The notes beneath the pieces are model-generated. The model was given only the letters and a program-made list of their open reading frames with translations. It was not told the DNA's origin and ran no database searches. Source: Candidatus Omnitrophota bacterium (GTDB lineage Bacteria > Omnitrophota > Gorgyraeia > Gorgyraeales > Gorgyraeaceae). Taken from it: DNA of 64,000 nt. The number at the start of each line of letters is the position of its first letter. Position 1 is the first letter of the stretch. Location: positions 6,342 through 70,341 of the forward strand of contig JBHPFI010000003.1 in the NCBI GenBank assembly GCA_042572045.1, given 5' to 3'. Positions 11,141-62,188 of the stretch are shown here, piece after piece. The translations under genes were made by a program, and so were the position numbers.

Positions 11141-11192
11141 GGCAGGATCTTAATAAGGGGCTTTGCCTCGAACAAAAACCTGGAGGTGGATA

Positions 11193-13501: not shown

Positions 13502-13503
13502 CC

Positions 13504-14364: not shown

Positions 14365-14376
14365 GAGGTGTGTAAA

Positions 14377-20636: not shown

Positions 20637-21415
20637 AGACAAATAAAATGATAAAGATAACCATTGATGACAGGCAAGTAGAGGTCGCCTCCGGCGCGAC
20701 TATATTAGAGGTAGCGAATAGTTTAGGCATAGACATACCTACCTTGTGTCATCACGAGGCGCTTGAGCCTTATGGTGCGTGCCGGGTCTGTCAGGTCGAG
20801 ATAGTTACACCCAGGCGCTCGAGCGTTATTACCGCGTGCACTTACCCGGTATGGGACGGGCTTATTATAAAGACTGAATCGGAAAAGGCAAAAACGGCCC
20901 GGAAATTTGTCGTGGAGCTTTTACTGGCGCGCTGCCCAAACTCAGAAAGGATACAGAAACTTGCAAAAGACATGGGTGTTGAGGCGAAAAGATTAAAGAG
21001 CGCGAATGAAAAGGAAGAGTGTGTCCTTTGCGGACTCTGCGTACGCGCATGTAAGGATATAATATGTAAAAGCGCTATTAGTTTTGTAAGTCGCGGCGCG
21101 GACAGGAAGATTGATACACCGTTCGCAGAGCATTCTGAGGACTGTATTGGGTGCGGCGCATGCGCATTTGTCTGCCCTACAGGCGCGATAAAGATGGAGG
21201 ATATACTAAAGGTACGCAAAATACATGACCGTAAGACAGAGCTTGAGCTGGCCGGTTGCAAGTGTTGCGGCGCCAGATTTGCCACTATAAAAGAATTAGA
21301 CCATCTTAAAGGGAAAATAGATATACTTCAGGACATATTCGAACTTTGTGAAAATTGCAGACGTAAAAAATTAAAAGAAAAAATATCTAAAGTGGAGGGG
21401 GCATGTCAAAGATAA
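20633..21415 (+). CDS. short FeS protein resembling only the N-terminal [2Fe-2S]+2x[4Fe-4S] part of HydA/NuoG/FdhA, with no catalytic domain
   Basis: CHHEALEPYGACRVCQVE, CVLCGLCVRAC, CIGCGACAFVCPTGA, plus a Cys-rich tail CKCCG...CENC. 260 aa; ATGA overlap with the NuoF-like gene. Confidence 0.75.
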   Translation: MKTNKMIKITIDDRQVEVASGATILEVANSLGIDIPTLCHHEALEPYGACRVCQVEIVTPRRSSVITACTYPVWDGLIIKTESEKAKTARKFVVELLLARCPNSERIQKLAKDMGVEAKRLKSANEKEECVLCGLCVRACKDIICKSAISFVSRGADRKIDTPFAEHSEDCIGCGACAFVCPTGAIKMEDILKVRKIHDRKTELELAGCKCCGARFATIKELDHLKGKIDILQDIFELCENCRRKKLKEKISKVEGACQR

Positions 21416-23580
21416 TTGCATCAGCTGCCATAAGAGGCGCGCAAAAAATTTACAAAGAGGCAGAGGATTTTCTGAATAAGGCAATTAAAGAAAAGAACGA
21501 AGACTGCGAGGTCAAATTTCCAGAGACCGCTTTTTATTTCCCAATGGCCTACGCTCTTCTTGGGAAAGAAGTGAAGACTCTCGCAGAGGCCAAAGAGGTG
21601 CTGCAGTTTTCAAAGACGCTCCTCCATGATGAACCTACTGAAAAGATATGGCTGCCTTATCTGGGGGATACTCTGGATTCAGGTGTCGCAACGTTATTGT
21701 GCGAAGAGATCATAATGGCATTACGATACCTATATAACCAGGAGCCACAGAAGGACTGTAATGGTTTTTTCTCAGACACCATTCTGCGCACACTTGGTAT
21801 TCAGCTTGTGGATGGAAGAATGCCAGGATTCGCAGCTATTTTAGGCGCAGCGCCTGACAATAAGACCGCTGTTAATATTGTACGCGAGCTTCAAAAACGC
21901 AGCATAATGACATTTATTGGTAGTTCAGTAAATGACCGAAGTATTATTGACCAGCTCATAGAAGAGAAGGTAGAGATGGGATGGGATACCTATATAGTAC
22001 CCTATGGCAGGGATAGCTTGAGCGCAATATATCCTTTAAACTGGGCAATTCGCGGCGCTCTTACATTTGGTGGCCATAAAAAAGGGGAGGCGCTTAAATG
22101 CCTGAAGTATTGTAAAGACAGGGTGTTTGCGTTTGGCATGGTTTTGGGCGAGTTGGATGATATAAAATACGCAACTGGCGCAGGCGCTATAAATATGGGA
22201 TTTCCTATCATAGCCGATACTAATATTCCTGAGATACGACCAACCGGCATATGTACCTATGAACACGTGATAAAAGAGCTAGACCACAAAAAAATAGTCC
22301 CGACAGCTATTGAATTAAGGGGAATAAAATTAAAGGTCTCAGAGATACCGATACCTGTGTCTTATTCTCCGGCGTTTGAAGGCGAACGCGTTAGACGCGA
22401 GCAAATGTTTGCGCAATTTGGCGGCAAATATTCAACCGCATTTGAATATGTCAAAATGGTGGGTGCGGATAAGATAGAGGATGGCAAGATCGAAGTCATT
22501 GGTCCGGAAGTGGACGATATCAAAGAAGGAGACGCTGCTCCTTTAGGAATAGTCGCAGAGGTCGCCGGCAGAAAGATGCAAAAGGATTTTGAACCTATAC
22601 TGGAGAGACAGATGCACAGCTTCTTGAATGAAGCGATGGGCATATTCCACATGGGCCAGAGAGACATGTGCTGGATAAGGATCTCCAAGGACGCAAAAGA
22701 TAAAGGGTTAAAACTCAAACATTTTGGCGTAATACTGCATGCGCGTTTTCACGATGTGTTCAGCGCGATAGCTGATAAAGTGCAGGTAACGATTTACACA
22801 AAACAGGAAGATGTGGAGAAAAAAATAAAAGAGGCGCAAAAATCATATAATGAAAGAGACGCGCGCGTTGCAGGCATGACAGATGAAAACGTTGATTTAT
22901 TCTGGACATGCACGCTTTGTCAGAGTTTTGCGCCAAACCATCTTTGTATAATAAAACCTGAAAGGATCGGATTGTGCGGAGCGTACAACTGGCTGGACGC
23001 CAAGGCGTCTTATGAGTTGAATCCGACAGGGCCCAATCAGCCTATCAAAAAAGGGGAATGCCTTGATCCTGTAAAAGGCGAGTGGAAAGGCGTGAATGAA
23101 ATTCTATCGCAGAAATCCAATCGCACGCTTGAGAGGTTTTGCGGATATTCTATCATAGATTCACCTGAGACCAGCTGCGGGTGCTTTGAATGCATAATAG
23201 CCATATTGCCGGAGGTAAACGGGTTTATGGTGGTAAACAGGGAATACGCGGGCGCAACGCCGGCTGGCATGGGCTTTTCAACCCTGGCAGGAACAATCGG
23301 CGGGGGTCAGCAAACTCCGGGTTTCATGGGCATAGGAAGGCTTTATATCACAAGTAAAAAATTTATCTCTGCGGAAGGCGGTATTAAAAGAATAGTATGG
23401 ATGCCCAAGGAGCTAAAAGAGGCGCTTAGCGATAAACTAAAAGAACGAGGCAAGGAATTGGGAGAGCCTGACTTAATAAATAAAATAGCAGATGAGACAG
23501 TAGCTACGTCTAGTGAAGAGCTATTGCCTTATCTAGAGAAGGTCGGCCATCCAGCATTGACAATGGAAGTAGTAATGTAA
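21403..23580 (+). CDS. acsB: acetyl-CoA synthase (A-cluster subunit, AcsB/CdhC type)
   Basis: 725 aa. A-cluster ligands WTCTLCQSFAPNHLC and Cys-Gly-Cys (SCGCFECI). Confidence 0.95.
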   Translation: MSKIIASAAIRGAQKIYKEAEDFLNKAIKEKNEDCEVKFPETAFYFPMAYALLGKEVKTLAEAKEVLQFSKTLLHDEPTEKIWLPYLGDTLDSGVATLLCEEIIMALRYLYNQEPQKDCNGFFSDTILRTLGIQLVDGRMPGFAAILGAAPDNKTAVNIVRELQKRSIMTFIGSSVNDRSIIDQLIEEKVEMGWDTYIVPYGRDSLSAIYPLNWAIRGALTFGGHKKGEALKCLKYCKDRVFAFGMVLGELDDIKYATGAGAINMGFPIIADTNIPEIRPTGICTYEHVIKELDHKKIVPTAIELRGIKLKVSEIPIPVSYSPAFEGERVRREQMFAQFGGKYSTAFEYVKMVGADKIEDGKIEVIGPEVDDIKEGDAAPLGIVAEVAGRKMQKDFEPILERQMHSFLNEAMGIFHMGQRDMCWIRISKDAKDKGLKLKHFGVILHARFHDVFSAIADKVQVTIYTKQEDVEKKIKEAQKSYNERDARVAGMTDENVDLFWTCTLCQSFAPNHLCIIKPERIGLCGAYNWLDAKASYELNPTGPNQPIKKGECLDPVKGEWKGVNEILSQKSNRTLERFCGYSIIDSPETSCGCFECIIAILPEVNGFMVVNREYAGATPAGMGFSTLAGTIGGGQQTPGFMGIGRLYITSKKFISAEGGIKRIVWMPKELKEALSDKLKERGKELGEPDLINKIADETVATSSEELLPYLEKVGHPALTMEVVM

Positions 23581-23588
23581 GTGAGGTC

Positions 23589-23620
23589 GCGACTTACACA
23601 ACGAAGTGAACGTAAGTCGC
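23589..23620. other. 9-bp stem hairpin GCGACTTAC-N14-GTAAGTCGC just after the acsB stop
   Basis: Perfect inverted repeat read directly; no adjacent U-tract. Confidence 0.6.
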
Positions 23621-23624
23621 TGAC

Positions 23625-23661
23625 CGAACTTATCCTTGAGGGTTTTTGGGGTTATTAAGAA
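23625..23661 (+). repeat. shared intergenic motif CGAACTTATCCTTGAsG-T-run-GGTTATT, copy 1
   Basis: Aligns with 44301-44339 (first 14 nt identical, the rest with small indels). Both copies follow a hairpin at the 3' end of an acs block. Confidence 0.6.
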
Positions 23662-23753
23662 GATAGCGGGAGAAGAGTTAGTTTTATGATAACAAAAAAT
23701 GTCAAGGGTCAGATTTGTTCGAACGAAGCGGACTCATTAAAGGAGATGACTAA

Positions 23754-25097
23754 ATGGCTCTATCGGGTTTAGATATTTACAAATTGCTACCAAAGACAAA
23801 CTGCAAAAAGTGCGGTTCGCCGACATGTCTTGCCTTTGCGATGAAGCTGGCAATGAAAAAGACATCTCTGGATCAATGCCCTGATATTTCAGAAGAAGCA
23901 AAGGCTTCTCTGGCTCAGGCTTCACGTCCGCCTATCGCGACGATAACTATTGGTTCGGGCGACAACAAAGTAGAAACAGGAGGGGAAACGGTTTTATTCA
24001 GGCATGAAAAAACCTTTTATCATCAGACCGCGATAGCAATAAGCGTAGAGGACACGCTTTCCGATTCTGAATTAACAGAAAAGGTTAAATCAATAGAAGG
24101 GCTTAGCTTTGAAAGAGTCGGCCAGCATATTGAGATTGACATGATAGCCCTGGTCAATACCAGCGCATCCAGCGAAAAATTTATCAATACGCTGGATAAA
24201 CTTGTTGCTGCCTCGGGTAAACCGATAATATTGATAAGCGACAACGTAAAGGCGATCGAAGATGCCCTGAAAAAATATCCTGACAAGAAACCTTTGATAT
24301 ATGCGGCAACGAGCGCCAATTTAAAAGACATGTCTCGGATAGCAAAGAGCTATAAGGCACCGCTCGCCTTAAAAGCCGATGGATTAGAGGAGCTTGACAA
24401 GCTTTCTCAGGAAGCAGCCTCGTCAGGCATAGAGGAGTTGGTTTTAGACCCAAACCCGTCAACGCTAAACCAGGCCATAAATGATTTTACTCAGATCAGA
24501 AGGCTCTGTCTGAAAAAAAATTACCGGGCCTTTGGTTATCCCATTATCGCATTTGTAAAGAGCAAGGAAAAATACCAGATGGTGCAGGAGGCGTCTACCT
24601 TTATCGCAAAATACGCGAGCTTAATCGTGATAGATTCTTTAGACAAAGAGGTGTTGCTTCCGGTCGTCACCCTGCGGCAGAATATTTATACAGACCCGCA
24701 GAAGCCGGTTACTGTTGAGCCAAAACTGTACGCCTTTGGCGCGGTTGACAAAAATTCGCCCGTTATGGTAACGACTAATTTTTCCCTTACATTTTATACT
24801 GTCTCGCCTGAGATAGAGGCAAGTAAAAATCCGGCATATCTTCTTGTCACGGATTCAGAAGGCATGAGTGTTCTTACGGCGTGGGCAGCGGAAAAATTTA
24901 CGCCAGAAGGTATATCCGAGTCAATGAAAAAATTCGACGTAGAAAGCGCGGTTTCGCATAAAAAAATCATTATTCCCGGGTATGTCTCGGTCTTGAGCGG
25001 AAAACTGGAGGACGCTTCTGGATGGCAGGTGCTTGTAGGCCCTAAAGAGGCGTCGGGCCTGCCAAAGTATTTGAAAGAGGTTTGGACTAAATCATGA
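23754..25097 (+). CDS. acsC: corrinoid iron-sulfur protein large subunit
   Basis: N-terminal [4Fe-4S] motif LPKTNCKKCGSPTCLAFA, 447 aa. Confidence 0.9.
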   Translation: MALSGLDIYKLLPKTNCKKCGSPTCLAFAMKLAMKKTSLDQCPDISEEAKASLAQASRPPIATITIGSGDNKVETGGETVLFRHEKTFYHQTAIAISVEDTLSDSELTEKVKSIEGLSFERVGQHIEIDMIALVNTSASSEKFINTLDKLVAASGKPIILISDNVKAIEDALKKYPDKKPLIYAATSANLKDMSRIAKSYKAPLALKADGLEELDKLSQEAASSGIEELVLDPNPSTLNQAINDFTQIRRLCLKKNYRAFGYPIIAFVKSKEKYQMVQEASTFIAKYASLIVIDSLDKEVLLPVVTLRQNIYTDPQKPVTVEPKLYAFGAVDKNSPVMVTTNFSLTFYTVSPEIEASKNPAYLLVTDSEGMSVLTAWAAEKFTPEGISESMKKFDVESAVSHKKIIIPGYVSVLSGKLEDASGWQVLVGPKEASGLPKYLKEVWTKS

Positions 25098-34558: not shown

Positions 34559-35281
34559 ATGAAAAAAAACATACTTGTAGCGCCAAGCATATTATCAGCT
34601 GATTTTTCAAGACTGGGGCAAGAAATAAAAAAGATTGAAGACGCCGGAGCTGACATGATACACATCGATGTAATGGACGGACATTTCGTGCCAAACATCA
34701 CCATCGGCCCTTTCATTGTCGAGGCAGCGAGAAAGGTAACGACTTTATTGCTTGATGTGCATTTGATGGTCGAAAACCCGCATAGATTCATAAGACAATT
34801 CGTAGATGCCGGAAGTGATATTATCACCGTACACCTGGAGGCATATTCTTTAATGGAAGGCGAGAATCAAAAAACTCGCCAAGGGAATAAGAAAGGCCTT
34901 TCAAGATCGACAGACAGGATAGATGAAGACATGGTGAAAGAAGCGCTCGGGCAAATAAAAAAATTCGGAAAAAAGGCAGGGATATCCTTGAATCCTGACT
35001 CGCCGTTTTCTTGCATACAGGGCGTGCTCGGCGAAACAGACATGGCTTTATTTATGTCAGTACACCCTGGCTTCGCAGGCCAGAAATTTATTGATAGCGT
35101 GGTGTCGAAGATAAAAGAGGCAAGGAGGCTTTACTCCGGAGACATTGAGGTTGATGGCGGCATAAACGACAAGAATGCGGGTCTGGTTATAGATGCCGGC
35201 GCGAACATAATCGTAGCAGGCTCTTATTTTTTTAGCTCAAAAGACCCGAAAGAGGCTGTGAAAAAATTACGCAACTATTAA
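34559..35281 (+). CDS. rpe: ribulose-phosphate 3-epimerase (with an internal insertion of about 27 aa)
   Basis: APSILSADF, HIDVMDGHFVPN, MSVHPGFAGQKF. Confidence 0.9.
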   Translation: MKKNILVAPSILSADFSRLGQEIKKIEDAGADMIHIDVMDGHFVPNITIGPFIVEAARKVTTLLLDVHLMVENPHRFIRQFVDAGSDIITVHLEAYSLMEGENQKTRQGNKKGLSRSTDRIDEDMVKEALGQIKKFGKKAGISLNPDSPFSCIQGVLGETDMALFMSVHPGFAGQKFIDSVVSKIKEARRLYSGDIEVDGGINDKNAGLVIDAGANIIVAGSYFFSSKDPKEAVKKLRNY

Positions 35282-39697: not shown

Positions 39698-39726
39698 TTG
39701 ACCGTCCCTTTTTACCATGTTAAAAT
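39698..39726 (+). promoter_or_regulatory. sigma70-like promoter upstream of acsV
   Basis: TTGACC-N17-TAAAAT. The acsV ATG is only 11 nt after the -10 and has no SD. Confidence 0.6.
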
Positions 39727-39736
39727 TCTATTTATT

Positions 39737-41668
39737 ATGGAAGAGTTTACCATTACATTCCTGCCTGAAAAGAAAACCATTTTAGTGGACAGGGGAACAG
39801 ATCTCCTGACAGCCGCTATTAAAGCTGGCATACATATATATAATAGCTGCGGGGGAGAAGGTGTGTGCGGCAGATGCAAGGTGATTGTAAAGAAGGGCAG
39901 GTACGCAACAGAGTATAGCGGAAGGATTTCTGAAAAAGAGCGCAAAAAGGGTTACGTGCTTGCCTGCAGGACAACGCCTGGCTCTAACATGGCTATACTG
40001 GTCCCCCCGGAATCCAGGTTAGGGGATATCGAGGTCCTTACGGATGAAGTAAGGGCAAAGCGCCTCGCAGGCCTTTATACCCCTGCTGAGAAAATAAAGG
40101 AAGAAACGCGTAAAGCGGAAATAAAGATATTCAAACACGGCCCTTTGTCCACAAAATTATTTCTAAAACTCCATCCCCCTTTAATAGATGACAACTGTGG
40201 CGATGTAGAAAGGCTTTTTAGAGAGATAAGAAGAGGCAGAAATATTCCTGTGATGCAGATGGGCTTGGGCAATATAAAAAAATTGCCTCATCTTTTAAGA
40301 GAAAGCAACTGGCTAGTCACAGCGACGCTGGGGAACAGGAACGGCACCATAGAAGTGGTGTTGATCGAACCAGGCGATACTGCTGGCAAAAACTTCGGCA
40401 TAGCCCTGGATATCGGCACAACTACCGTAGTGGCGTATTTAGTAGATTTAAAATCGCAGAAGGTATTAAGCGCAAAGGCGAGCTATAACCCTCAGATTGA
40501 TTTTGGAGAGGATGTGATTTCCAGGATTGTATATGCGCAAGAAGGAAGAGGCCTTGAAAAATTGCATCATGCGGTAATAGATGTGGTAAATACGCTTATA
40601 TGCGGCCTTGCGAAAGAGCAAGATTTGACCTTGGACGACATTACGGCAGTAGTGTGCGCGGGCAACACCACTATGACCCACCTTTTGCTAAAAATAGAAC
40701 CGGCGTATATAAGAAAAGAACCTTACGTGCCTGCTGTAAATTTTATGCCTGTGATCAGGGCTGCGGAGGCCGGGATAAAGGTGCATCCGCGAGGGCTTCT
40801 TTCCTGCCTACCTTCCATAGGAAGCTATGTCGGCGGCGATATAATTAGCGGCGTTCTTGCATCTGGCATAGATGACACAAGCGAAACCTCACTTTTTATA
40901 GACCTGGGCACGAATGGCGAGGTTGTTCTTGGGAATAAAGAGTATTTTATGGCGTGTTCCACATCTGCCGGTCCTTGTTTTGAAGGAGGAGGGTTAACTT
41001 CGGGCGTCAGGGCAATGAAGGGCGCAGTACAAAGCGTTTCTATAAAAGATAACAAGCTATTCGCAGAAACCATAGGCGAGGCGGCACCGATAGGCATATG
41101 CGGCTCCGGCATAATAGAGGCGATCAGTGTATTCTTGCAATATAAGATCATAGACCGCTCTGGAAAAATAAAGGATAATGACGTTTGCAAAGTGCGTGAT
41201 GCCGACGGGGTAAACGAAATTGTTCTCGTGGATAAGGAAAATTCAGCCACCGGCAAAGATGTGACCATTGACGAAAACGACATTAAAAACGTTATTCATT
41301 CAAAAGGCGCCATCTACACAGGGATAGAAACCCTATTGAGAGAATCCGGCTACAAGAACTCTGATTTAAAGCATGTTTTTATTGCCGGGGGCATGGGTAC
41401 GGCGTTAAATATAAGATCTGCCATAAACATCGGGCTTTTGCCTGATTTACCCGAGGACAAATTCGAGTTTTTAGGGAATACTTCGATAACAGGTGCAAAG
41501 ATGTGTATACTTTCGAACGAGGCAATGGAAAAAGCGCATTCAATTGCCAACAAAATGACGTATCTTGATTTGAGCACAAATTCATCTTTTATGAATAATT
41601 ACAGCGCGACACTTTTTTTACCGCATACTGATATAGAGTTATTTCCGACAGTAAAGAAGATATTATAG
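39737..41668 (+). CDS. acsV: reductive activator of the corrinoid Fe-S protein (RACo/AcsV; 2Fe-2S ferredoxin + ASKHA ATPase)
   Basis: N-terminal plant-type ferredoxin CGGEGVCGRCKV, ASKHA phosphate loop ALDIGTTTV, DLGTNGE. Confidence 0.85.
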   Translation: MEEFTITFLPEKKTILVDRGTDLLTAAIKAGIHIYNSCGGEGVCGRCKVIVKKGRYATEYSGRISEKERKKGYVLACRTTPGSNMAILVPPESRLGDIEVLTDEVRAKRLAGLYTPAEKIKEETRKAEIKIFKHGPLSTKLFLKLHPPLIDDNCGDVERLFREIRRGRNIPVMQMGLGNIKKLPHLLRESNWLVTATLGNRNGTIEVVLIEPGDTAGKNFGIALDIGTTTVVAYLVDLKSQKVLSAKASYNPQIDFGEDVISRIVYAQEGRGLEKLHHAVIDVVNTLICGLAKEQDLTLDDITAVVCAGNTTMTHLLLKIEPAYIRKEPYVPAVNFMPVIRAAEAGIKVHPRGLLSCLPSIGSYVGGDIISGVLASGIDDTSETSLFIDLGTNGEVVLGNKEYFMACSTSAGPCFEGGGLTSGVRAMKGAVQSVSIKDNKLFAETIGEAAPIGICGSGIIEAISVFLQYKIIDRSGKIKDNDVCKVRDADGVNEIVLVDKENSATGKDVTIDENDIKNVIHSKGAIYTGIETLLRESGYKNSDLKHVFIAGGMGTALNIRSAINIGLLPDLPEDKFEFLGNTSITGAKMCILSNEAMEKAHSIANKMTYLDLSTNSSFMNNYSATLFLPHTDIELFPTVKKIL

Positions 41669-41676
41669 GCCTCTAT

Positions 41677-42450
41677 ATGACGAATGTCAGGGCGCCATAT
41701 ATAATCGCGATTGCAGGAAAGGGTGGGGTTGGAAAAACAACCATTAGCGCGCTTTTGATTCGGCATCTTGTGAAAATCAATAGCCCGGTGCTAGCTGTTG
41801 ACGCTGATCCGAATTCTAATCTTAATGTATTGCTGGGCTTTGATTACGATAAGACTATTTCGGATATACGGGAAGAGGCGAAAAAACTTTCCTCCTCAAG
41901 TTTTTCAAAAAGCGATTTCTTTAATCTAAGGTTGCAAGAAATACTTTTCGAAGGCGACGGCGTGGACCTTCTTGTCATGGGACGACCGGAAGGACCTGGT
42001 TGCTATTGCGCTGTTAATAATATTTTAAGAGAGCACCTGTCCAAGCTGAGCAAAAATTATAACTTTGTCGTAATAGACAATGAGGCTGGCATGGAGCATC
42101 TGAGCCGACGCACAGCAAATAATATAGATAGGCTTCTTTTGGTCAGCGACACAACACCTGTCGGCATACATTCGGCCATAAATGCCTTTCAGGCCGCGCA
42201 AAAGATCGATTTAAAAATAAAGCGCGCCTCGTTATTGATTAATAAATCAAAAGTGCCGCTCAAGGAGGATGGAATAAGACTGATAGAGGGATCTGGCTTA
42301 GGCATAGCTGGCTACATTCGCTTTCAAGAAGAGATACAGCAAAATAGCGAATCAGGGGCATCGATCTCAAACATTAAGATCAAGGGCATGAATAGTGTTT
42401 TTGACAATTTAATATGCGAGAGCGAGGCCATCTCTCGCCACAACAAATAA
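41677..42450 (+). CDS. acsF: ACS nickel-insertion accessory ATPase (CooC/AcsF family)
   Basis: P-loop GKGGVGKTT, C-x-C motif GPGCYCA. Confidence 0.85.
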   Translation: MTNVRAPYIIAIAGKGGVGKTTISALLIRHLVKINSPVLAVDADPNSNLNVLLGFDYDKTISDIREEAKKLSSSSFSKSDFFNLRLQEILFEGDGVDLLVMGRPEGPGCYCAVNNILREHLSKLSKNYNFVVIDNEAGMEHLSRRTANNIDRLLLVSDTTPVGIHSAINAFQAAQKIDLKIKRASLLINKSKVPLKEDGIRLIEGSGLGIAGYIRFQEEIQQNSESGASISNIKIKGMNSVFDNLICESEAISRHNK

Positions 42451-42469
42451 ACCAATGCGCGGAGGCACG

Positions 42470-43429
42470 ATGGAAAGAGCGATTGAAAAATGGCAGGATA
42501 AGATATGCGAGGTTGCGCTCGGGGCATCAAAGGAAGAAGGGGGCTCTCGAACAGGAACGATTAAAGTCGGAGGAGAAACAGGGATCTACTTCATAAAAGG
42601 CGAAGATGCCTGTCCTAATTCTCCTGTGATAGCCATGGAGGTGTGGGACATGGAGCCGGAATCCTGGCCAGTATCTTTAAAGGCGAATTTTGGCAGCGCA
42701 TTAAAAAACCCTACTGAATGGGCAAAGATATGCGTTGAGAAATTTTCAGCGGACTTAATATGTCTGAGGCTCGCCAGCGTGCATCCAGACGCAAAGAACG
42801 CTTCTTCGGAAGAGGCAGGAAAAACGCTTGAATCGATCCTTAAGGCAGTAAGCGTGCCTTTGATTGTGCTAGGGAGCTCATCGCCTGAAAAAGACAACGA
42901 GGCAATGGTGCACTGCGCTGAAGTCGCAAAAGGGGAGAATTGCCTCTTTGGAATCGCTACCCAGGGAAATTACAAGACATTAACTGCCGCGTGTATAAGC
43001 GGAGGGCACTCTATTATTTCAGAGGCGCCAATAGATATAAACATCGCCAAACAGCTAAACATACTCATATGCGACATGCAATTTTCGGCAAATAAGATTG
43101 TTATACATCACGCTACAGGGGCGCTAGGGTATGGCTTAGAGTATACATACTCTATAATGGAAAGAACAAGGCTTGCGGGTCTTTCAGGGGATAAGATGCT
43201 TTCTATGCCATTGATAAATTTTGTAGGGCAAGAGGTCTGGCGCACAAAGGAGGCTAAGACAGGGGACGAGGTTTCTAAGGACTGGGGTCCGGCAAAACAT
43301 AGAGGGGCGTTGCTGGAAATGGCAACAGCCGTTGCTTATTTAAATGCCGGTTCTGACATACTCGTTATGAGCCACCCAAAGGCCGTCGAGGAGACAAAAA
43401 AAGTAATAAACGATCTGTGCAAAAATTAG
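42470..43429 (+). CDS. acsD: corrinoid iron-sulfur protein small subunit
   Basis: Length and position between acsF and acsE, overall resemblance to AcsD TIM-barrel subunits. ATG 42470 follows GGAGG. Confidence 0.8.
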   Translation: MERAIEKWQDKICEVALGASKEEGGSRTGTIKVGGETGIYFIKGEDACPNSPVIAMEVWDMEPESWPVSLKANFGSALKNPTEWAKICVEKFSADLICLRLASVHPDAKNASSEEAGKTLESILKAVSVPLIVLGSSSPEKDNEAMVHCAEVAKGENCLFGIATQGNYKTLTAACISGGHSIISEAPIDINIAKQLNILICDMQFSANKIVIHHATGALGYGLEYTYSIMERTRLAGLSGDKMLSMPLINFVGQEVWRTKEAKTGDEVSKDWGPAKHRGALLEMATAVAYLNAGSDILVMSHPKAVEETKKVINDLCKN

Positions 43430-43485
43430 AGCATCAAGCAACATAAAAATCATGATGCCTGGCATCTAACCTCAAGGGAGAACAT

Positions 43486-44280
43486 ATGTTTATCATCGGC
43501 GAGCGAATAAATGGGATGTTTAATGACGTGGCGGATGCCCTAAAGAAAAAGGATGAATCGGTCATACAGGGTCTTGCGGAAAAACAGATTGCATGCGGCG
43601 CAAATGCGCTGGATGTAAATGTAGGGCCGTCTTCTGACAGCCCAAAAGAGGCCATGCAGTGGCTTGTAAGAACCATTACCGCAGTCACTGATATAACGCT
43701 TGCCATCGATACCACAAAAAACGATGTAATGGAGGCCGGGCTTTCGTTGTGCAAGTCAGAGCCTATAATCAATTCTGTAAACGCCAATCAGGATAAAATG
43801 AATTCGCTTTTTGCGCTCGCAAAAAAATACAACGCGTCTATTATAGGGCTAACTATGGATAAGTCTGGCATACCAAAAGACGCTGAAGGTCGGTTAGAGC
43901 TCGGCATGAAGATAGTGGCATTTGCTCTTGAGCAGGATTTTGATATATCTAAACTTTACATCGACTCTGTGATCCTGCCTGTAAATGTCGCGCAGGTTCA
44001 CGCAAAAGAAGTGTTAAAAACAATAAGGGATTCGAAGATGTTGGCAGCCCCTCCGCCAAAGACAATGCTTGGCCTGTCTAACGTGTCCCAGGGCGCGCCA
44101 TACGAAAACAAGCCCCTTATAAACAGAACGTTTATGGTAATGGCAATAGCTTCGGGCCTAGACGGAGCCATTATGGATGTTACTGACAAAGAATTAGTCG
44201 ATGCGGGAATAACCGCAGAGCTTTTAATGGAAAAACAGCTTTACTGCGACTCTTATATCGAGGCATACAGAAAAAAGTAA
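43486..44280 (+). CDS. acsE: methyl-THF:corrinoid/iron-sulfur protein methyltransferase
   Basis: MFIIGERING N-terminus, pterin-binding barrel blocks (LDVNVG, INSV, GLSNVS). Confidence 0.9.
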   Translation: MFIIGERINGMFNDVADALKKKDESVIQGLAEKQIACGANALDVNVGPSSDSPKEAMQWLVRTITAVTDITLAIDTTKNDVMEAGLSLCKSEPIINSVNANQDKMNSLFALAKKYNASIIGLTMDKSGIPKDAEGRLELGMKIVAFALEQDFDISKLYIDSVILPVNVAQVHAKEVLKTIRDSKMLAAPPPKTMLGLSNVSQGAPYENKPLINRTFMVMAIASGLDGAIMDVTDKELVDAGITAELLMEKQLYCDSYIEAYRKK

Positions 44281-44305
44281 GTTCGTCCGCCTCAGGCGGA
44301 CGAAC
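44281..44305. repeat. 11-bp stem hairpin GTTCGTCCGCC-TCA-GGCGGACGAAC immediately after the acsE stop
   Basis: The core 17-mer is the reverse complement of 3802-3818. Confidence 0.7.
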
Positions 44306-44339
44306 TTATCCTTGACGTTTTTTTTGAGGTTATTGGGAA
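44301..44339 (+). repeat. shared intergenic motif CGAACTTATCCTTGAsG-T-run-GGTTATT, copy 2
   Basis: Aligns with 23625-23661. Confidence 0.6.
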
Positions 44340-44758
44340 TGACGGTTATTACTAAAAAAATAAAATTAAATACAAAGGGCTCTACGGACATTATTAACAT
44401 TACGGATCAGACGAGAGAGATTGTGTCCAAGACTGCGACAAAAAACGGGATTGTCCTTATTTTTGTGCCTGGTTCAACCGGAGGGCTCACTACCGTAGAA
44501 TACGAACCGGGGCTTGTCCAGGATCTAAAGAAGTTTTTTGAAAAGATAGCCCCTGAGTCCAGCACATATCAACATGATTTACGCTGGCACGATGGCAATG
44601 GGCACGCTCACGTAAGGGCCTCTTTTTTAGGGCCTAGCATATCAGTTCCATTTGTTAACAAGACCTTGCAGCTCGGCACATGGCAGCAGATTATATTCAT
44701 AGATTTTGACAACAGGCCAAGATCGAGAGAGTTGATATTTCAGATAGTGGGGGACTGA
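44339..44758 (+). CDS. yjbQ: YjbQ/UPF0047 family protein (secondary thiamine-phosphate synthase-like)
   Basis: About 139 aa, DITD..., HDLRWHDGNGHAHVRASFLGPS, tail RPRSRELIFQIVG typical of the family. Confidence 0.8.
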   Translation: MTVITKKIKLNTKGSTDIINITDQTREIVSKTATKNGIVLIFVPGSTGGLTTVEYEPGLVQDLKKFFEKIAPESSTYQHDLRWHDGNGHAHVRASFLGPSISVPFVNKTLQLGTWQQIIFIDFDNRPRSRELIFQIVGD

Positions 44759-44783: not shown

Positions 44784-46070
44784 ATGAAGCCGATATTACA
44801 AGTTGCCCTGGATTTTGTGAATTTAAAACGGGCTCTTAAGTGCGCCGAAGAAGCGGTGAAAGGCGGGGCGGATTGGATAGAAGCAGGCACCCCTCTTATA
44901 AAAAGCGAGGGCCTGAATGCAGTAAGGAAATTACGTGAAAGATTTCCGAGAAAAACAATAGTTGCTGACATGAAGATAATGGATACTGGTCGCACAGAAG
45001 TAGAGATCGCTGCCAAGGCAGGCGCAAACGTGGTTTGTGTTCTCGGTGCCAGCAGTGACTCAACCATAAAGGAATGCGTTGAGGCAGCGCGTAATTACGG
45101 GGCGAAGATACAGGTAGATCTGATTGCGATAAAGAATGCGGGGAAACGCGCCGCGGAAATACAAAAATTCGGAATTGATTATATAGGCGTTCATTGCGCA
45201 ATTGACGACCAGATGCGGGCAAAGGATCCCCTTGGCCAGTTAAGGGAAATCTCAAAGAAAATAAGCGTACCGATAGCGGCTGCAGGTGGAATAAACTCTG
45301 AAACAGCTCCTGAGGTGATAAAGTCCGGGGCAAGCATTGTTATTGTTGGTGGGGCGATCAGCAAGGCAGGCGATGCGGAAAAAGCCACCCGCCGCATAAA
45401 ACAATCGATCTTGAGCATGAAGAAGATAAAGACAGAGTTTTTCAAGAGGGTATCCGAAAAAGATATAGAAAAGATTTTAAAAAATGTCTCTACAGCAAAC
45501 TTGTCAGACGCGATGCACAGGAGCGGGGATTTAAAAAATTTGCAGGCGATTAGCCCTGGAATAAAGATGTATGGTAAGGCGCTTACGGTGAGGACCTATC
45601 CTGGGGATTGGGCAAAGGCGGTAGAAGCAGTTGAGGTGGCTGATGCCGGTCAGGTTATTGTCATTGACGCAGGAGGCGTTGGTCCTAGTGTATGGGGGGA
45701 ACTGGCGACGCATGGAGCGATTCAAAAAAAGATATCAGGCGTTGTAATAGATGGGGCCATTCGGGACGTTCAGGAAATAAGACGCCTTAAATTCCCCGCG
45801 TTCGCCAAGATCATATCGCCTACGGCGGGAGAACCGAAAGGGTTTGGAGAGATCGGTGTCCCCGTGAACATAAGCGGCACAAAAATATTCCCGGGAGATT
45901 ACATTGTAGGGGACGGCGATGGCGTGATCGTCGTTCCCGGACAAAAGGCCATAGAGTTGACCAACAGGGCCATGGGCATTCTTGAGATGGAAGACCGATT
46001 AAGAAAAGAAATAGACGACGGAAACACGCTGGCAAATATAATAGAGCTTTTGAAATGGGAAAAAAAGTAG
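44784..46070 (+). CDS. fusion protein: 3-hexulose-6-phosphate synthase domain + RraA/HMG-aldolase-like domain
   Basis: N-terminal half aligns along its length with HxlA-type HPS (LQVALDF..IEAGTPLIK..ADMKIMD..GGI..VIVGGAI). C-terminal half has RraA-type blocks (ANLSDAM, VIVIDAGG...VWGELAT, DGAIRD, GDGDGVIVVP). Confidence 0.8.
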   Translation: MKPILQVALDFVNLKRALKCAEEAVKGGADWIEAGTPLIKSEGLNAVRKLRERFPRKTIVADMKIMDTGRTEVEIAAKAGANVVCVLGASSDSTIKECVEAARNYGAKIQVDLIAIKNAGKRAAEIQKFGIDYIGVHCAIDDQMRAKDPLGQLREISKKISVPIAAAGGINSETAPEVIKSGASIVIVGGAISKAGDAEKATRRIKQSILSMKKIKTEFFKRVSEKDIEKILKNVSTANLSDAMHRSGDLKNLQAISPGIKMYGKALTVRTYPGDWAKAVEAVEVADAGQVIVIDAGGVGPSVWGELATHGAIQKKISGVVIDGAIRDVQEIRRLKFPAFAKIISPTAGEPKGFGEIGVPVNISGTKIFPGDYIVGDGDGVIVVPGQKAIELTNRAMGILEMEDRLRKEIDDGNTLANIIELLKWEKK

Positions 46071-47167
46071 CTCAAAATAAGATATTCATAGCAGCCACGA
46101 GACAGAATGACGGAAAAACTACTTTGTCCATGGGTCTTATTAATACCCTTAAGAAAAGATTAAAAAGCGTTGGTTTTATAAAACCTGTTGGCCAAAGATA
46201 TGTTATCGATGGAGGATTTAAGGTTGACGAAGATTCGGTCCTCATCGAAAATGTTTGTGGCATGAAGTGCCGATTGAAAGACATGAGCCCCGTGGCTATA
46301 GAGAGAGGTTTTACAGAAAAATATATAAGGACAGGGGGTTACGAAAAATTGGTCGATGACATCGTCGGGTCATTTAAGCGCGTGTCCAAAGGAAAAAGTC
46401 TTATTGTAATCGAAGGCACTGGTCATGCAGGCGTTGGGGCCGTGTTTGATCTTTCCAACGCAAAGATAGCAAAGCTTCTGGGCGCCAAGGTAATACTCAT
46501 AACATCAGGGGGAATAGGCAGACCTATAGACGAGATAGAGCTCAACATGGCCTTGTTTGAAAAAGAAGGCGTTGAGGTGATAGGCGTCATCGTTAACAAG
46601 GTCATACCGTCAAAATATAAAAAAATACAGCAGGTGCTCAAGCTTGGTTTTAAGCGTAAAGGCGTTGATTTGCTGGGCACCATACCATATATGCCACTAT
46701 TATCAACGCCTACTATGCAGCATATTTTAGAAGAAACAGATGTAGAGCTTATTTCAAAAAAAGTTGGCATGCGCAATAAGATTCAAAAGATACTGATAGG
46801 GGCCATGGAGCCACACAATGCGTTGTCTTATATAGAAAACGACTGCCTTCTGATAACGCCCGGAGACAGGGAAGACATGCTTATGACCCTATTAAGCGTG
46901 CATCTTCTGAAAAAATCTAAAAAGAGTTTTTCGATTTCAGGAATAATCCTGACAGGGGGCATAATCCCTAATCAAAAAATAATGACACTTATACAAAGCG
47001 CAAAGATACCTGTTTTTCTGAGCAAAAAACACACCTATGCGGCTGCGTCCCAGATATATGACTTGGCTATAAAAATAAGGCCTGAGGATAAAGAAAAAAC
47101 AAAAATGGCAACAAGGTTAGTAGAAGAGTACGTGGATATAGACAAGATACTATCTAAAATTAAATAA
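46055..47167 (+). CDS. protein homologous to the N-terminal (BioD-like P-loop + DRTGG) region of class II phosphotransacetylase, lacking the catalytic PTA domain
   Basis: IFIAATRQNDGKTTLSMGL, VIEGTGHAGVG, VIVNKV, LITPGDRED..ILTGG pattern as in the E. coli Pta N-terminus. 370 aa; overlaps the upstream gene by 16 nt. Confidence 0.7.
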   Translation: MGKKVAQNKIFIAATRQNDGKTTLSMGLINTLKKRLKSVGFIKPVGQRYVIDGGFKVDEDSVLIENVCGMKCRLKDMSPVAIERGFTEKYIRTGGYEKLVDDIVGSFKRVSKGKSLIVIEGTGHAGVGAVFDLSNAKIAKLLGAKVILITSGGIGRPIDEIELNMALFEKEGVEVIGVIVNKVIPSKYKKIQQVLKLGFKRKGVDLLGTIPYMPLLSTPTMQHILEETDVELISKKVGMRNKIQKILIGAMEPHNALSYIENDCLLITPGDREDMLMTLLSVHLLKKSKKSFSISGIILTGGIIPNQKIMTLIQSAKIPVFLSKKHTYAAASQIYDLAIKIRPEDKEKTKMATRLVEEYVDIDKILSKIK

Positions 47168-61805: not shown

Positions 61806-61879
61806 GCGGGTGTAGTTCAATGGTAGAACACGAGCTTCCCAAGCTCGCAGCGTGGGTTCGATTCCCATCACCCGCTCCA
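61806..61879 (+). tRNA. tRNA-Gly (anticodon CCC), CCA encoded
   Basis: Manual cloverleaf: acceptor GCGGGTG/CACCCGC, D arm GTTC-AATGGTA-GAAC, anticodon arm CGAGC-TTCCCAA-GCTCG, T arm GTGGG-TTCGATT-CCCAT, discriminator T + CCA. Confidence 0.9.
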
Positions 61880-61888
61880 TTCAAGAAT

Positions 61889-62188
61889 ATGAAAAACGTT
61901 AAAAAGATCATTAAAAACCTGACTTCTTCCGGCTCCAAGAAAGTATTCTATGCGTCGGTAAAGTGCTCTGGGTGCGAAGAAGAGGTAAAAATAAGAATAA
62001 ACCGTCCTTCAGATTTTCAGGAAGAGTATAATCCGCATAACCCAGAACACTGTTACACAGTAAAAAAAGAGATAATCGGAAAAAAATGTTTCAACCTTAT
62101 GAAATTGACGCTCGCCCTGACAAAAAAGATAAATGTTTTATTCGCTGATGCCGAATCATGTGAATTCATGGCATTCGATAGGGAGTAA
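61889..62188 (+). CDS. hypothetical small Cys-containing (possible zinc-ribbon) protein
   Basis: 99 aa from the first ATG beyond the tRNA. CSGC...HC...C pattern; no family recognised. Confidence 0.45.
   Translation: MKNVKKIIKNLTSSGSKKVFYASVKCSGCEEEVKIRINRPSDFQEEYNPHNPEHCYTVKKEIIGKKCFNLMKLTLALTKKINVLFADAESCEFMAFDRE

What the first reader, a model, noticed from the sequence alone, without database searches (positions are those of the whole stretch)
44784..46070. HPS-RraA fusion protein encoded directly behind the acs methyl-branch genes
Seen in sequence: a 428-aa ORF has an N-terminal half that aligns end to end with HxlA-type 3-hexulose-6-phosphate synthase. Its C-terminal half carries RraA / HMG-aldolase-family blocks. 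It follows acsE-yjbQ and is overlapped by the next gene.

Recollection, to be verified: this fusion architecture is annotated mostly in archaea as a bifunctional hexulose-6-phosphate synthase / ribonuclease regulator. There, a reverse RuMP route supplies pentoses.

Inference: its placement next to the methyl-THF-handling genes suggests a link between the C1 pool and sugar phosphates. Formaldehyde equilibrates chemically with methylene-THF, so the link could be formaldehyde fixation or detoxification, or pentose synthesis. No 6-phospho-3-hexuloisomerase gene is evident next to it.
Basis: partly seen in the sequence, partly recalled or inferred. Interest (0 to 1): 0.6.

Follow-up and report, generated by a model that had tools for sequence, protein, structure and literature searches.

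The report
Hexulose-phosphate synthase–aldolase fusion, likely pantoate-linked
The gene is a real fusion of a formaldehyde-releasing sugar-phosphate enzyme with a metal-dependent aldolase, and its gene neighbours in many other microbes suggest it makes the vitamin B5 precursor ketopantoate without the usual folate-dependent enzyme PanB.

Summary
ORF 44784-46070 (+) encodes a 428-aa protein. Its N-half is a true 3-hexulose-6-phosphate synthase (HPS), not KGPDC or OMPDC. Its C-half is an RraA-like class II aldolase with the catalytic Arg and metal-binding Asp intact. It follows acsE-yjbQ, and the next gene overlaps its end by 16 nt.

The host is a Candidatus Omnitrophota bacterium. The family is already catalogued (NCBIfam NF005442) and is widespread in anaerobic archaea and bacteria.

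The Wood-Ljungdahl linkage is real but limited to certain lineages: Gorgyraea-type Omnitrophota, plus C1-folate genes in Zipacnadia and some Planctomycetota.

Across 86 related loci the recurrent partners are:
- PHI in 16 loci
- YjbQ in 21, never together with PHI
- pantothenate/CoA genes in 25 loci from six or more phyla

In Asgard and Nezhaarchaeales genomes the fusion sits inside the pantoate kinase-PPS-KPR-MfnA operon. No locus carries PanB. The complete Atabeyarchaeia-1 genome has no PanB hit, yet it has a separate Fae-Hps and PHI.

Best reading (about 0.5): a formaldehyde relay. The HPS half releases formaldehyde from hexulose-6-phosphate. The aldolase half adds it to 2-oxoisovalerate to give 2-dehydropantoate.

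The parts
44784..46070 (+). HPS-RraA-like fusion gene (428 aa plus stop codon)
   Evidence: The identical protein is P0001 from Candidatus Omnitrophota.
44793..45398 (+). HPS domain (aa 4-205). Conserved residues include E33, D62, K64, D67, D112, H137, D141 and Q143.
   Evidence: TIGR03128 scores 228.6 against a cutoff of 200. PDB hits to HPS score 224, 139 and 131 bits, against 57-67 bits for KGPDC. The listed residues are invariant in 86 homologues.
45492..45932 (+). RraA-like class II aldolase domain (aa 237-383). Key residues are G305, R327 and D328.
   Evidence: PF03737 at 5e-43. R327, D328 and G305 align with Arg123, Asp124 and Gly101 of HMG/CHA aldolase 3NOJ. The roles of those residues are given in PMC5065237. 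All three are invariant in 86 homologues.
45933..46067 (+). C-terminal extension (aa 384-428) containing invariant E403. This residue lies near the position aligned with the metal-site residue Glu199 of 3NOJ.
   Evidence: The alignment in this stretch is low-confidence.
44339..44758 (+). yjbQ (UPF0047), 139 aa from the ATG at 44339 (the ORF is listed from a TTG at 44312). It lies immediately upstream of the fusion and on the same strand.
   Evidence: TIGR00149 scores 102.8 against a cutoff of 67.75. A YjbQ gene sits directly upstream of the fusion in 21 other loci from Omnitrophota and Actinomycetota. The start codon was read from the sequence.
46055..47167 (+). AAA_26+DRTGG protein (370 aa), resembling the N-terminal half of type II Pta. 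Its start overlaps the end of the fusion by 16 nt.
   Evidence: The gene and its overlap with the fusion (1-16 nt) are conserved in L001-L004.
44278..44308 (.). Perfect 14-bp hairpin between the acsE stop codon and yjbQ. It could be a terminator, an attenuator or an RNA-stabilising element.
39698..44280 (+). Second acs sub-cluster upstream: acsV/RACo (39698-41668), a cooC-like ATPase (41677-42450), acsD (42455-43429) and acsE (43486-44280).

Best explanation
SHOWN. The gene encodes a two-domain enzyme in which both halves keep their catalytic residues. The N-half is a Mg-dependent 3-hexulose-6-phosphate synthase, which interconverts hexulose-6-P with ribulose-5-P plus formaldehyde. The C-half is an RraA-like class II (metal-dependent) 2-oxoacid aldolase. 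It is not an RNase E regulator.

INFERRED. The fusion works as a formaldehyde relay. The HPS half releases formaldehyde from hexulose-6-P, which PHI makes from fructose-6-P. The aldolase half adds that formaldehyde to the Mg-stabilised enolate of 2-oxoisovalerate, giving 2-dehydropantoate (ketopantoate). Ketopantoate reductase then reduces this to pantoate. This would make the fusion a folate-independent, non-homologous stand-in for PanB.

INFERRED for this genome. The gene's place behind acsE reflects a shared formaldehyde-level C1 pool. Methylene-THF equilibrates chemically with formaldehyde and is PanB's normal donor. YjbQ, the tightly linked upstream gene, is an accessory of unknown role and may replace PHI.
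For: 1. Both halves are under equal purifying selection. Identity to distant homologues is 50-63% for the N-half and 45-58% for the C-half. The HPS residues (E33, D62, K64, D67, D112, H137) and the aldolase residues (G305, R327, D328, E403) are invariant in 86 sequences from more than 12 phyla.

2. PHI is immediately adjacent to the fusion in 16 of 86 loci (TIGR03127 scores 165.6 against a cutoff of 160). This supports RuMP chemistry for the N-half.

3. Pantothenate/CoA genes lie within about 1.6 kb of the fusion in 25 of 86 loci:
- L059 (Atabeyarchaeia): PoK-PPS-[fusion]-PanE-MfnA.
- L079 (Nezhaarchaeales): CoaBC-PoK-[fusion]-PanE-PPS-MfnA.
- L055: [fusion]-PanE-CoaBC.
- L041, L018, L061, L063, L078 and L083: [fusion]-PanE.
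- 13 Actinomycetota loci: DUF2520 reductase and/or panC, with panD in two, followed by yjbQ-[fusion], in two different arrangements.
- L062 and L084: [fusion]-PHI-DUF2520.

4. No PanB hit was found in any of the 86 loci or in the window.

5. The complete Atabeyarchaeia-1 genome has KofamScan hits for PoK, PPS, PanE, MfnA and CoaBC but none for K00606 (PanB). It also has a separate Fae-Hps and PHI, so the fusion is a second, specialised HPS.

6. Standalone RraA-like relatives P0209 and P0294 are each directly preceded by a PanE/ApbA gene.

7. Ketopantoate is a 4-hydroxy-2-oxoacid. That is the substrate class of the HMG/CHA aldolases, whose catalytic Arg stabilises the 2-oxoacid enolate (PMC5065237).

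8. HPS is also fused to other candidate formaldehyde consumers: aldehyde:ferredoxin oxidoreductase in P0136 and P0165, and Fae.
Against: - There is no biochemical evidence, and no paper was found that links this family to pantoate.
- In this window and in all Gorgyraea-type Omnitrophota loci, no pan gene is nearby. The neighbours there are acs genes.
- 61 of the 86 loci show no pan linkage. These include the Thermoplasmata, methanogen and anammox loci.
- PanB absence could be checked in only one complete genome, and only from a published KO table that lists above-threshold hits.
- HMG/CHA-type enzymes use pyruvate as the nucleophile. Use of the bulkier 2-oxoisovalerate is assumed, not shown.
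- Equating DUF2520 proteins with the ketopantoate reductase PanG rests on my recollection. The paper is not held in the library.
- The 13 Actinomycetota loci are related to one another, so they are not independent observations.
Confidence: 0.5

Rival explanations
1. RuMP-only role. The HPS half supplies ribulose-5-P by the reverse RuMP route, or fixes or detoxifies formaldehyde leaking from methylene-THF. The RraA-like half is regulatory or metabolically unrelated. The acs neighbourhood reflects this link between the C1 pool and sugar phosphates.
For: - The HPS signature is complete.
- PHI is adjacent in 16 loci.
- The acs-yjbQ-fusion block is conserved in Omnitrophota despite different flanking genes.
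- C1-folate genes flank the fusion in L063, L078, L064 and L038.
- rpe lies in the window at 34559-35281.
- The precedent of Fae-Hps in archaea (my own knowledge; Fae-Hps is present in Atabeyarchaeia).
Against: - It does not explain why the aldolase catalytic residues are invariant.
- It does not explain why the fusion sits inside pantothenate/CoA operons in archaea and next to panE, panC or panD in four bacterial phyla.
- Atabeyarchaeia-1 already has Fae-Hps plus PHI for that job.
Confidence: 0.25
2. The C-half condenses formaldehyde with a different 2-oxoacid, or cleaves some other 4-hydroxy-2-oxoacid. One example is pyruvate giving 4-hydroxy-2-oxobutanoate. The neighbouring ApbA/PanE-family reductases would then act on that product rather than on ketopantoate.
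For: Characterised RraA-like aldolases use pyruvate (PMC5065237). ApbA/PanE and DUF2520 are broad reductase families. The Omnitrophota loci lack pan genes.
Against: Pantoate kinase, phosphopantothenate synthetase, CoaBC, MfnA, PanC and PanD in the same operons are specific to the pantothenate route. One complete genome has a missing-PanB gap that this reading does not fill.
Confidence: 0.13
3. The C-half is an oxaloacetate decarboxylase or HMG/CHA aldolase of central or aromatic metabolism that happens to be fused to HPS.
For: There are weak matches to LigK/PcmE-type models and to 3NOJ.
Against: All equivalog cutoffs are missed by a wide margin (92 against 304.5, and 104 against 179). No aromatic-catabolism genes occur in any locus. 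The more distant RraA-like protein in a catabolic-type setting (L094) is a different subgroup.
Confidence: 0.06
4. The C-half is a true RraA-type inhibitor of RNase E, as the family name 'ribonuclease regulator' implies.
For: Only the NCBIfam name.
Against: RraA equivalog models are missed (70.5 against 136, and 51.6 against 241). The catalytic Arg-Asp pair is invariant. According to PMC5065237, most homologues that carry these motifs are likely to be class II aldolases. The family also occurs in archaea; my recollection, not checked here, is that archaea lack RNase E.
Confidence: 0.02

Closest known systems
NCBIfam NF005442 (PRK07028) 'bifunctional hexulose-6-phosphate synthase/ribonuclease regulator'
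   Same: End-to-end match (aa 2-428) at 595.6 bits against a cutoff of 593, with the same two-domain architecture. Relatives occur in Methanocalculus, Thermoplasmata, Asgard archaea, Bathyarchaeia and many bacterial phyla.
   Different: Nothing structural. The second half of the family name is probably wrong, because the aldolase catalytic residues are intact. No paper found here links this family to any pathway, so its physiological role appears to be uncharacterised.
Fae-Hps fusion of methanogens and other archaea (KO K13812)
   Same: HPS is fused to a partner that takes up the formaldehyde it releases, linking sugar phosphates to a C1 pool. This logic is from my own knowledge. A Fae-Hps gene is present in Atabeyarchaeia-1.
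   Different: The partner there is formaldehyde-activating enzyme acting on H4MPT. Here it is an RraA-like aldolase, and the proposed acceptor is a 2-oxoacid. NF009833 scores only 138.6 against a cutoff of 274.
HPS-PHI fusion (PDB 9LJ9; NF041755; KO K13831)
   Same: The N-half is the closest solved relative of our HPS half, at 224 bits over 202 residues.
   Different: Its C-half is a SIS-domain isomerase, not an RraA-like domain. NF041755 scores 226.9 against a cutoff of 500, and only the N-half matches. Pipelines that use K13831 mislabel the HPS-RraA proteins as HPS-PHI.
HMG/CHA aldolase of Pseudomonas putida (PDB 3NOJ) and RraA-like class II aldolases
   Same: Matching RraA-like family domain by sequence (PF03737; the fold itself was not modelled). 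The catalytic Arg123, metal ligand Asp124 and pocket residue Gly101 are conserved as R327, D328 and G305.
   Different: Only 66-68 bits. The LigK/PcmE equivalog cutoffs are not met. There is no aromatic-degradation context. The domain is fused to HPS, and a different nucleophile (2-oxoisovalerate) is proposed.
PanB, ketopantoate hydroxymethyltransferase (K00606)
   Same: The proposed product (2-dehydropantoate) and the proposed place in the pathway are the same. In archaeal pantothenate/CoA operons the fusion occupies the one step that has no assigned gene.
   Different: There is no sequence similarity to PanB: E. coli PanB finds nothing in any locus. The C1 donor would be formaldehyde from hexulose-6-P rather than methylene-THF.
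E. coli RraA (RNase E regulator)
   Same: Distant relative within PF03737, at 47 bits to PDB 1Q5X.
   Different: The equivalog cutoffs are missed. The catalytic residues retained here point to an enzyme rather than an inhibitor.

Membership tests
3-hexulose-6-phosphate synthase (HxlA, TIGR03128) | Score above the curated equivalog-domain cutoff over the full domain | tested here: met
   228.6 bits against a cutoff of 200, covering aa 5-209 against model positions 1-205 of 205.
3-hexulose-6-phosphate synthase (HxlA, TIGR03128) | Metal and catalytic residues of the OMPDC suprafamily (Glu33, Asp62, Lys64, Asp67, His136 in KGPDC numbering) | tested here: met
   E33, D62, K64, D67 and H137 are present and are invariant in 86 homologues.
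3-hexulose-6-phosphate synthase (HxlA, TIGR03128) | Residues that separate HPS from KGPDC (Asp at 112, no Arg at 139, Ala at 169) | tested here: met
   The protein has D112, I140 and A167 at the aligned positions. The KGPDC variant 1XBX (V at position 139) scores higher against it than 1XBY (R at 139), which scores higher than 1KV8 (66.9, 64.4 and 60.7 bits). Which residues discriminate the two enzymes, which PDB entries are wild type or mutant, and the HPS-enhancing effect of the mutations are all my recollection of Wise et al. 2005.
3-hexulose-6-phosphate synthase (HxlA, TIGR03128) | Genomic coupling with 6-phospho-3-hexuloisomerase | tested here: not met
   No PHI lies in the 64-kb window. 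PHI is directly adjacent to the fusion in 16 of 86 homologous loci.
3-hexulose-6-phosphate synthase (HxlA, TIGR03128) | Catalysis of Ru5P + formaldehyde to hexulose-6-P and back | not testable with these tools
   Needs an enzyme assay.
NF005442 / PRK07028 HPS-RraA fusion | Full-length match above the equivalog cutoff | tested here: met
   595.6 bits against a cutoff of 593, aa 2-428. The margin is small.
RraA-like class II aldolase (PF03737; HMG/CHA aldolase type) | Domain match, plus the catalytic Arg and metal-binding Asp (Arg123/Asp124 of 3NOJ) and the pocket residue Gly101 | tested here: met
   PF03737 at 5e-43. R327, D328 and G305 align without gaps to 3NOJ and are invariant. Their roles are described in PMC5065237.
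RraA-like class II aldolase (PF03737; HMG/CHA aldolase type) | Second metal-site acid (Glu199 of 3NOJ) | tested here: inconclusive
   E401 aligns with Glu199, and the invariant E403 lies two residues further on. The alignment in this stretch is weak.
HMG/CHA aldolase orthologues (LigK/PcmE, TIGR02798; NF006731) | Score above the equivalog cutoff, and an aromatic-catabolism context | tested here: not met
   92.4 against a cutoff of 304.5, and 103.6 against 179. No such neighbours occur in any locus.
RraA, RNase E regulator (NF006875, TIGR02998) | Score above the equivalog cutoff | tested here: not met
   70.5 against a cutoff of 136, and 51.6 against 241.25.
HPS-PHI fusion (NF041755 / K13831) | A SIS-domain isomerase as the C-terminal half | tested here: not met
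   226.9 against a cutoff of 500, and only aa 2-246 match. The C-half is RraA-like.
KGPDC (UlaD/SgbH) | Score above the cutoff | tested here: not met
   104.1 against a cutoff of 250, and 92.9 against 294.
PanB ketopantoate hydroxymethyltransferase | Homology to PanB | tested here: not met
   E. coli PanB gives no tblastn hit at E<=1e-3 in the window or in any locus. The claim is therefore 'works like PanB', not 'is a member of the PanB family'.
PanB ketopantoate hydroxymethyltransferase | Formation of 2-dehydropantoate from 2-oxoisovalerate and a C1 unit | not testable with these tools
   Inferred only from operon context and from the absence of a PanB hit in one complete genome.

The most novel reading that the evidence does not exclude
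The HPS-RraA-like family is a folate-independent ketopantoate synthase. It would transfer a hydroxymethyl unit from hexulose-6-phosphate to 2-oxoisovalerate, passing formaldehyde between its two fused active sites. In that way it would replace PanB in many anaerobic archaea and bacteria. A corollary is that the tightly linked YjbQ (UPF0047, function unknown) is a non-homologous substitute for 6-phospho-3-hexuloisomerase in Omnitrophota and Actinomycetota.
Probability: 0.45. Interest if true: 0.8.

Novelty: new variant of a known kind. Interest (0 to 1): 0.6.

Why it matters
If the family makes ketopantoate, several things follow:
- It closes a gap in coenzyme A biosynthesis for organisms that lack PanB. 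At least one complete Asgard genome is in that position.
- It gives a function to a widespread and misnamed protein family, currently called 'ribonuclease regulator' or mislabelled 'HPS-PHI'.
- It adds a third kind of HPS fusion in which toxic formaldehyde is handed directly to a consumer.
- It corrects metabolic reconstructions that count this gene as evidence for formaldehyde assimilation by the RuMP pathway.
- It offers a natural, folate-free formaldehyde-to-2-oxoacid aldolase module that could be useful in synthetic C1 metabolism.

For this genome in particular, it changes how the gene behind acsE should be read. It looks less like an extra carbon-fixation branch and more like a cofactor-synthesis step drawing on formaldehyde-level C1 units.

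Tried and rejected
- **Locus scan with the 18-sequence alignment A1.** I repeated it with the 12-sequence alignment A2.
- **KGPDC or OMPDC identity of the N-half.** Rejected on scores and on discriminating residues.
- **RNase E regulator reading.** Rejected.
- **Recent transfer from archaea into Omnitrophota.** Not supported. The window groups with bacterial clades, and GC content across the gene is only slightly raised (0.46-0.50 against 0.39-0.46 in the surrounding sequence).
- **Contexts of standalone RraA-like relatives.** P0200 was on a contig too short to inform. The P0209 contig is only 1.8 kb, but it does show a PanE-like ORF directly upstream. L093 is fragmented. L094 is a different, catabolic-type subgroup. 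P0297 (L090, L091) has no pan genes nearby.
- **PanG paper (to confirm that DUF2520 proteins are ketopantoate reductases).** Not held in the library.
- **PanB versus fusion complementarity in Omnitrophota.** The stored supplement of PMC10066038 covers only three genomes. All three have PanB and lack both the fusion and acs genes. That fits the hypothesis, but the sample is too small to count.
- **Whole-genome search of this MAG for PanB, PanE, PHI or transketolase.** Not possible.
- **Structure prediction.** Not run. Sequence matches to solved structures already fix both domain families, and a monomer model could not show channelling between the two active sites.
Full report
**1. Observation**

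ORF 44784-46070 (+) is real and encodes 428 aa. A GGAG ribosome-binding site lies 6 nt before the ATG.

Pfam finds an OMPdecase/HUMPS domain at aa 4-205 and an RraA-like domain at aa 237-383. NCBIfam gives an end-to-end match to NF005442, 'bifunctional hexulose-6-phosphate synthase/ribonuclease regulator', at 595.6 bits against a cutoff of 593. The HxlA model TIGR03128 scores 228.6 against a cutoff of 200. KGPDC, OMP decarboxylase and HPS-PHI models all fall far below their cutoffs.

Upstream lie the acs genes acsV/RACo, a cooC-like ATPase, acsD and acsE, followed by yjbQ. Downstream, a 370-aa AAA_26+DRTGG protein starts 16 nt before the fusion's stop codon.

The identical protein is deposited for a Candidatus Omnitrophota bacterium, and more than 120 protein clusters share 67-83% identity with it. 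The rest of the window carries the remaining Wood-Ljungdahl genes (fhs, fchA, folD, metF, cooC, acsA, acsB, acsC) at 11163-25097. About 14.6 kb of housekeeping genes separate the two groups.

**2. The two halves**

The N-half matches solved HPS structures much better than KGPDC: 224 bits to 9LJ9 (an HPS-PHI fusion), 139 to 3AJX and 131 to 3F4W, against 57-67 bits for KGPDC. It carries D112, I140 and A167 at the positions that, by my recollection of Wise et al. 2005, separate HPS from KGPDC. Consistent with this, the KGPDC variant with Val at position 139 scores higher against it than the variant with Arg, which in turn scores higher than 1KV8.

The C-half aligns without gaps to HMG/CHA aldolase 3NOJ across the active-site loop. 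R327, D328 and G305 correspond to Arg123 (stabilises the enolate and is essential), Asp124 (metal ligand) and Gly101 (lines the pyruvate pocket) (roles from PMC5065237). The RraA and LigK equivalog cutoffs are not met.

In an alignment of 86 homologues, both catalytic sets are invariant and the two halves diverge at similar rates. The protein is therefore a two-enzyme fusion, not an enzyme joined to a regulator.

**3. Distribution and origin**

A scan of one genome per GTDB species found 592 relatives. The best 80 all cover at least about 90% of the query (residues 1-384 in the shortest case) at 51-78% identity. They come from:
- Bacteria: Omnitrophota, Desulfobacterota, Actinomycetota (Thermoleophilia, Geothermincolia), Planctomycetota including anammox lineages, Aerophobetes, Ratteibacteria, NPL-UPA2 and Armatimonadota (Zipacnadia).
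- Archaea: Thermoplasmata, Asgard archaea, Bathyarchaeia, Nezhaarchaeales and Altiarchaeales.

Methanocalculus also has the fusion.

In a midpoint-rooted NJ tree the archaeal sequences are basal and paraphyletic. All bacterial sequences form one nested clade made of phylum-coherent groups. The window groups with Omnitrophota, next to Aerophobetes, NPL-UPA2 and anammox sequences. This fits an archaeal origin for the family but gives no sign of a recent transfer into Omnitrophota. The tree is a distance tree without support values.

**4. Wood-Ljungdahl linkage**

All eight Gorgyraea-type Omnitrophota loci (the window, L001-L004 and L007-L009) keep acsV-cooC-acsD-acsE-yjbQ-fusion-DRTGG. L003 has different genes on both sides and only 50-55% identity in the acs proteins, so the block itself is conserved and not merely local synteny.

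A second Omnitrophota-labelled lineage (L047) lacks the block.

Elsewhere, C1-folate genes flank the fusion in several loci:
- L063 (Zipacnadia): fhs-fchA-folD-metF-fusion-panE-acsE, all on one strand.
- L078, L061 and L083: panE followed by an acsE-type methyltransferase.
- L064: fusion-PHI-fchA-folD.
- L038: folD.

Most loci have no Wood-Ljungdahl neighbour. The linkage is therefore real, recurrent and restricted to certain lineages.

**5. Conserved partners**

I clustered all ORFs within 5 kb of the fusion in 86 loci and annotated the large clusters. This gave the following:
- YjbQ directly upstream in 21 loci (7 Omnitrophota, 13 Actinomycetota, one Thermoplasmatales locus at 2.6 kb).
- PHI directly adjacent in 16 loci (mostly Desulfobacterota, three Planctomycetota). 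PHI and YjbQ never occur together.
- PanE/ApbA ketopantoate reductase directly adjacent in 9 loci.
- A Rossmann+DUF2520 reductase in 14 loci.
- PanC in 12 loci.
- PanD in 2 loci.
- QueD in 10 loci.

In the Atabeyarchaeia-1 chromosome (L059) the order is pantoate kinase - phosphopantothenate synthetase - fusion - PanE - MfnA. In Nezhaarchaeales (L079) it is CoaBC - pantoate kinase - fusion - PanE - PPS - MfnA. In Hecatellales (L055) it is fusion - PanE - CoaBC.

Actinomycetota show DUF2520 - panC - (panD) - yjbQ - fusion, and also a second arrangement with panC downstream on the opposite strand.

In all, 25 of 86 loci from six or more phylum-level lineages carry pantothenate/CoA genes within about 1.6 kb of the fusion. 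As a rough estimate (my inference, not computed), a random gene would have such a neighbour about 1% of the time.

Two standalone RraA-like relatives of the C-half are each directly preceded by a PanE gene. This ties the pantoate link to the aldolase half specifically.

**6. The missing step**

These operons encode every step to 4'-phosphopantothenate except ketopantoate hydroxymethyltransferase. E. coli PanB finds nothing in any locus or in the window.

The published KofamScan table for the complete Atabeyarchaeia-1 genome is held in full in the stored supplement. It lists PoK (gene 1060), PPS (1061), the fusion (1062, which hits K13831, K08093 and K10218), PanE (1063), MfnA (1064) and CoaBC (2640). 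There is no K00606 entry.

The same genome has a separate Fae-Hps (gene 459), PHI (gene 708) and RpiA. It therefore already has the reverse-RuMP pentose route, and the fusion is a second, specialised HPS.

**7. Mechanism proposed**

Ketopantoate is a 4-hydroxy-2-oxoacid. Its retro-aldol products are 2-oxoisovalerate and formaldehyde. That is the chemistry of RraA-like class II aldolases, and formaldehyde is exactly what the fused HPS releases.

I therefore propose a relay:
- fructose-6-P is converted to hexulose-6-P by PHI;
- hexulose-6-P is split into ribulose-5-P and formaldehyde by the N-half;
- formaldehyde is added to 2-oxoisovalerate by the C-half to give 2-dehydropantoate;
- 2-dehydropantoate is reduced to pantoate by PanE or the DUF2520 reductase.

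Other HPS fusions to candidate formaldehyde consumers fit the same design: Fae and aldehyde:ferredoxin oxidoreductase (P0136 and P0165).

The links to folD, metF and acsE fit a shared C1 pool at the formaldehyde oxidation level. Methylene-THF is PanB's normal donor and equilibrates chemically with formaldehyde (established chemistry).

Shown: the architecture, the conserved residues, the gene contexts, and the absence of a PanB hit in one complete genome. Inferred: the substrate, the direction of the HPS reaction, and any channelling between the two sites.

**8. What remains weak**

- No pan gene lies near the fusion in Omnitrophota.
- 61 of the 86 loci show no pan link.
- The 13 Actinomycetota loci are not independent of one another.
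- PanB status is unknown for this genome.
- In the three Omnitrophota genomes whose KO tables are held, PanB is present while the fusion and acs genes are absent. This fits the hypothesis, but the sample is only three.
- No paper in the searchable library links hexulose-phosphate synthase or RraA-like proteins to pantoate. That covers open-access literature only.

**9. YjbQ and the DRTGG protein**

YjbQ's physiological function is unknown (PMC3010111). It sits in the same slot as PHI, and the two are mutually exclusive across loci. It lies within the actinobacterial panC-(panD)-yjbQ-fusion operons, and in two of those loci panD is present as well.

In E. coli, yjbQ overexpression rescues a pdxB mutant, apparently by producing 2-oxo-3-hydroxy-4-phosphobutanoate. 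That would fit a 3-keto to 2-keto isomerase, which is PHI-like chemistry. This is speculation.

The DRTGG protein matches only the N-terminal half of type II Pta. It is confined to the Omnitrophota block, and its role is open.

**10. Verdict**

The finding is a correct observation of a catalogued but functionally uncharacterised fusion. Comparative genomics points to a more specific and testable role in pantoate synthesis.

Noticed in passing
window 44278-44308: A perfect 14-bp hairpin (AAGTTCGTCCGCCT/AGGCGGACGAACTT) begins inside the acsE stop codon and lies ahead of yjbQ. A T-run follows about 10 nt downstream on the + strand. It may separate or attenuate transcription between acsE and yjbQ-fusion-DRTGG.
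   Followed up: partly
window 46055-47167: A standalone AAA_26+DRTGG protein matches only the N-terminal (regulatory) half of type II phosphate acetyltransferase. Its overlap with the fusion's stop codon (1-16 nt) is conserved in Omnitrophota. Its function is unknown, and no PTA catalytic domain lies next to it.
   Followed up: partly
window 11163-25097 and 39698-44280: The Wood-Ljungdahl genes are split into two clusters. About 14.6 kb of housekeeping genes lie between them (der, a dinG-like helicase, trpBA, manC, an M16 peptidase, rpe, pgm, lepA). In L003 the acsB-acsC-acsV-...-acsE genes are contiguous instead.
   Followed up: partly
P0136, P0165, P0132: Other HPS fusions appear in the representative protein library. 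Two join aldehyde:ferredoxin oxidoreductase to HPS (992 and 600 aa). One 968-aa protein has several HPS-like stretches followed by a SIS domain.
   Followed up: no
L059 8001-9278; JGI names: KO K13831 ('hps-phi') is assigned to HPS-RraA proteins. Many JGI entries, and gene 1062 of Atabeyarchaeia-1 in PMC11291895, are therefore called HPS-PHI although the C-half is RraA-like. This inflates predictions of the RuMP pathway.
   Followed up: yes
L013, L024, L027, L028, L040, L042, L043, L054, L057, L068: A QueD/6-pyruvoyl-tetrahydropterin synthase family gene lies directly upstream of the fusion in anammox and other Planctomycetota and in one Aerophobetes locus. This hints at a pterin link that I cannot explain.
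   Followed up: no
P0172, P0176, P0178, P0195, P0263 (alignment A1): A divergent group of same-length HPS-RraA proteins (24-30% identity) lacks H137 and has Thr or Ser in place of the catalytic R327. They are probably not catalytic in the same way.
   Followed up: no
L071-L073, L075, L080, L081: In Thermoplasmata a DUF362 protein with a 4Fe-4S ferredoxin domain lies directly downstream of the fusion in six loci. Its function is unknown.
   Followed up: no
L006 8537-14229: In one euryarchaeal contig the fusion is followed by genes whose Pfam domains resemble a formylmethanofuran dehydrogenase operon (polyferredoxins, Molydop_binding, Molybdopterin, Amidohydro_3, GXGXG). A ribose-5-phosphate isomerase gene lies upstream.
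   Followed up: no
window 61806-61879: tRNA-Gly(CCC) is the only RNA gene in the window. The mechanical ORF 61820-62188 overlaps it and is probably spurious.
   Followed up: no
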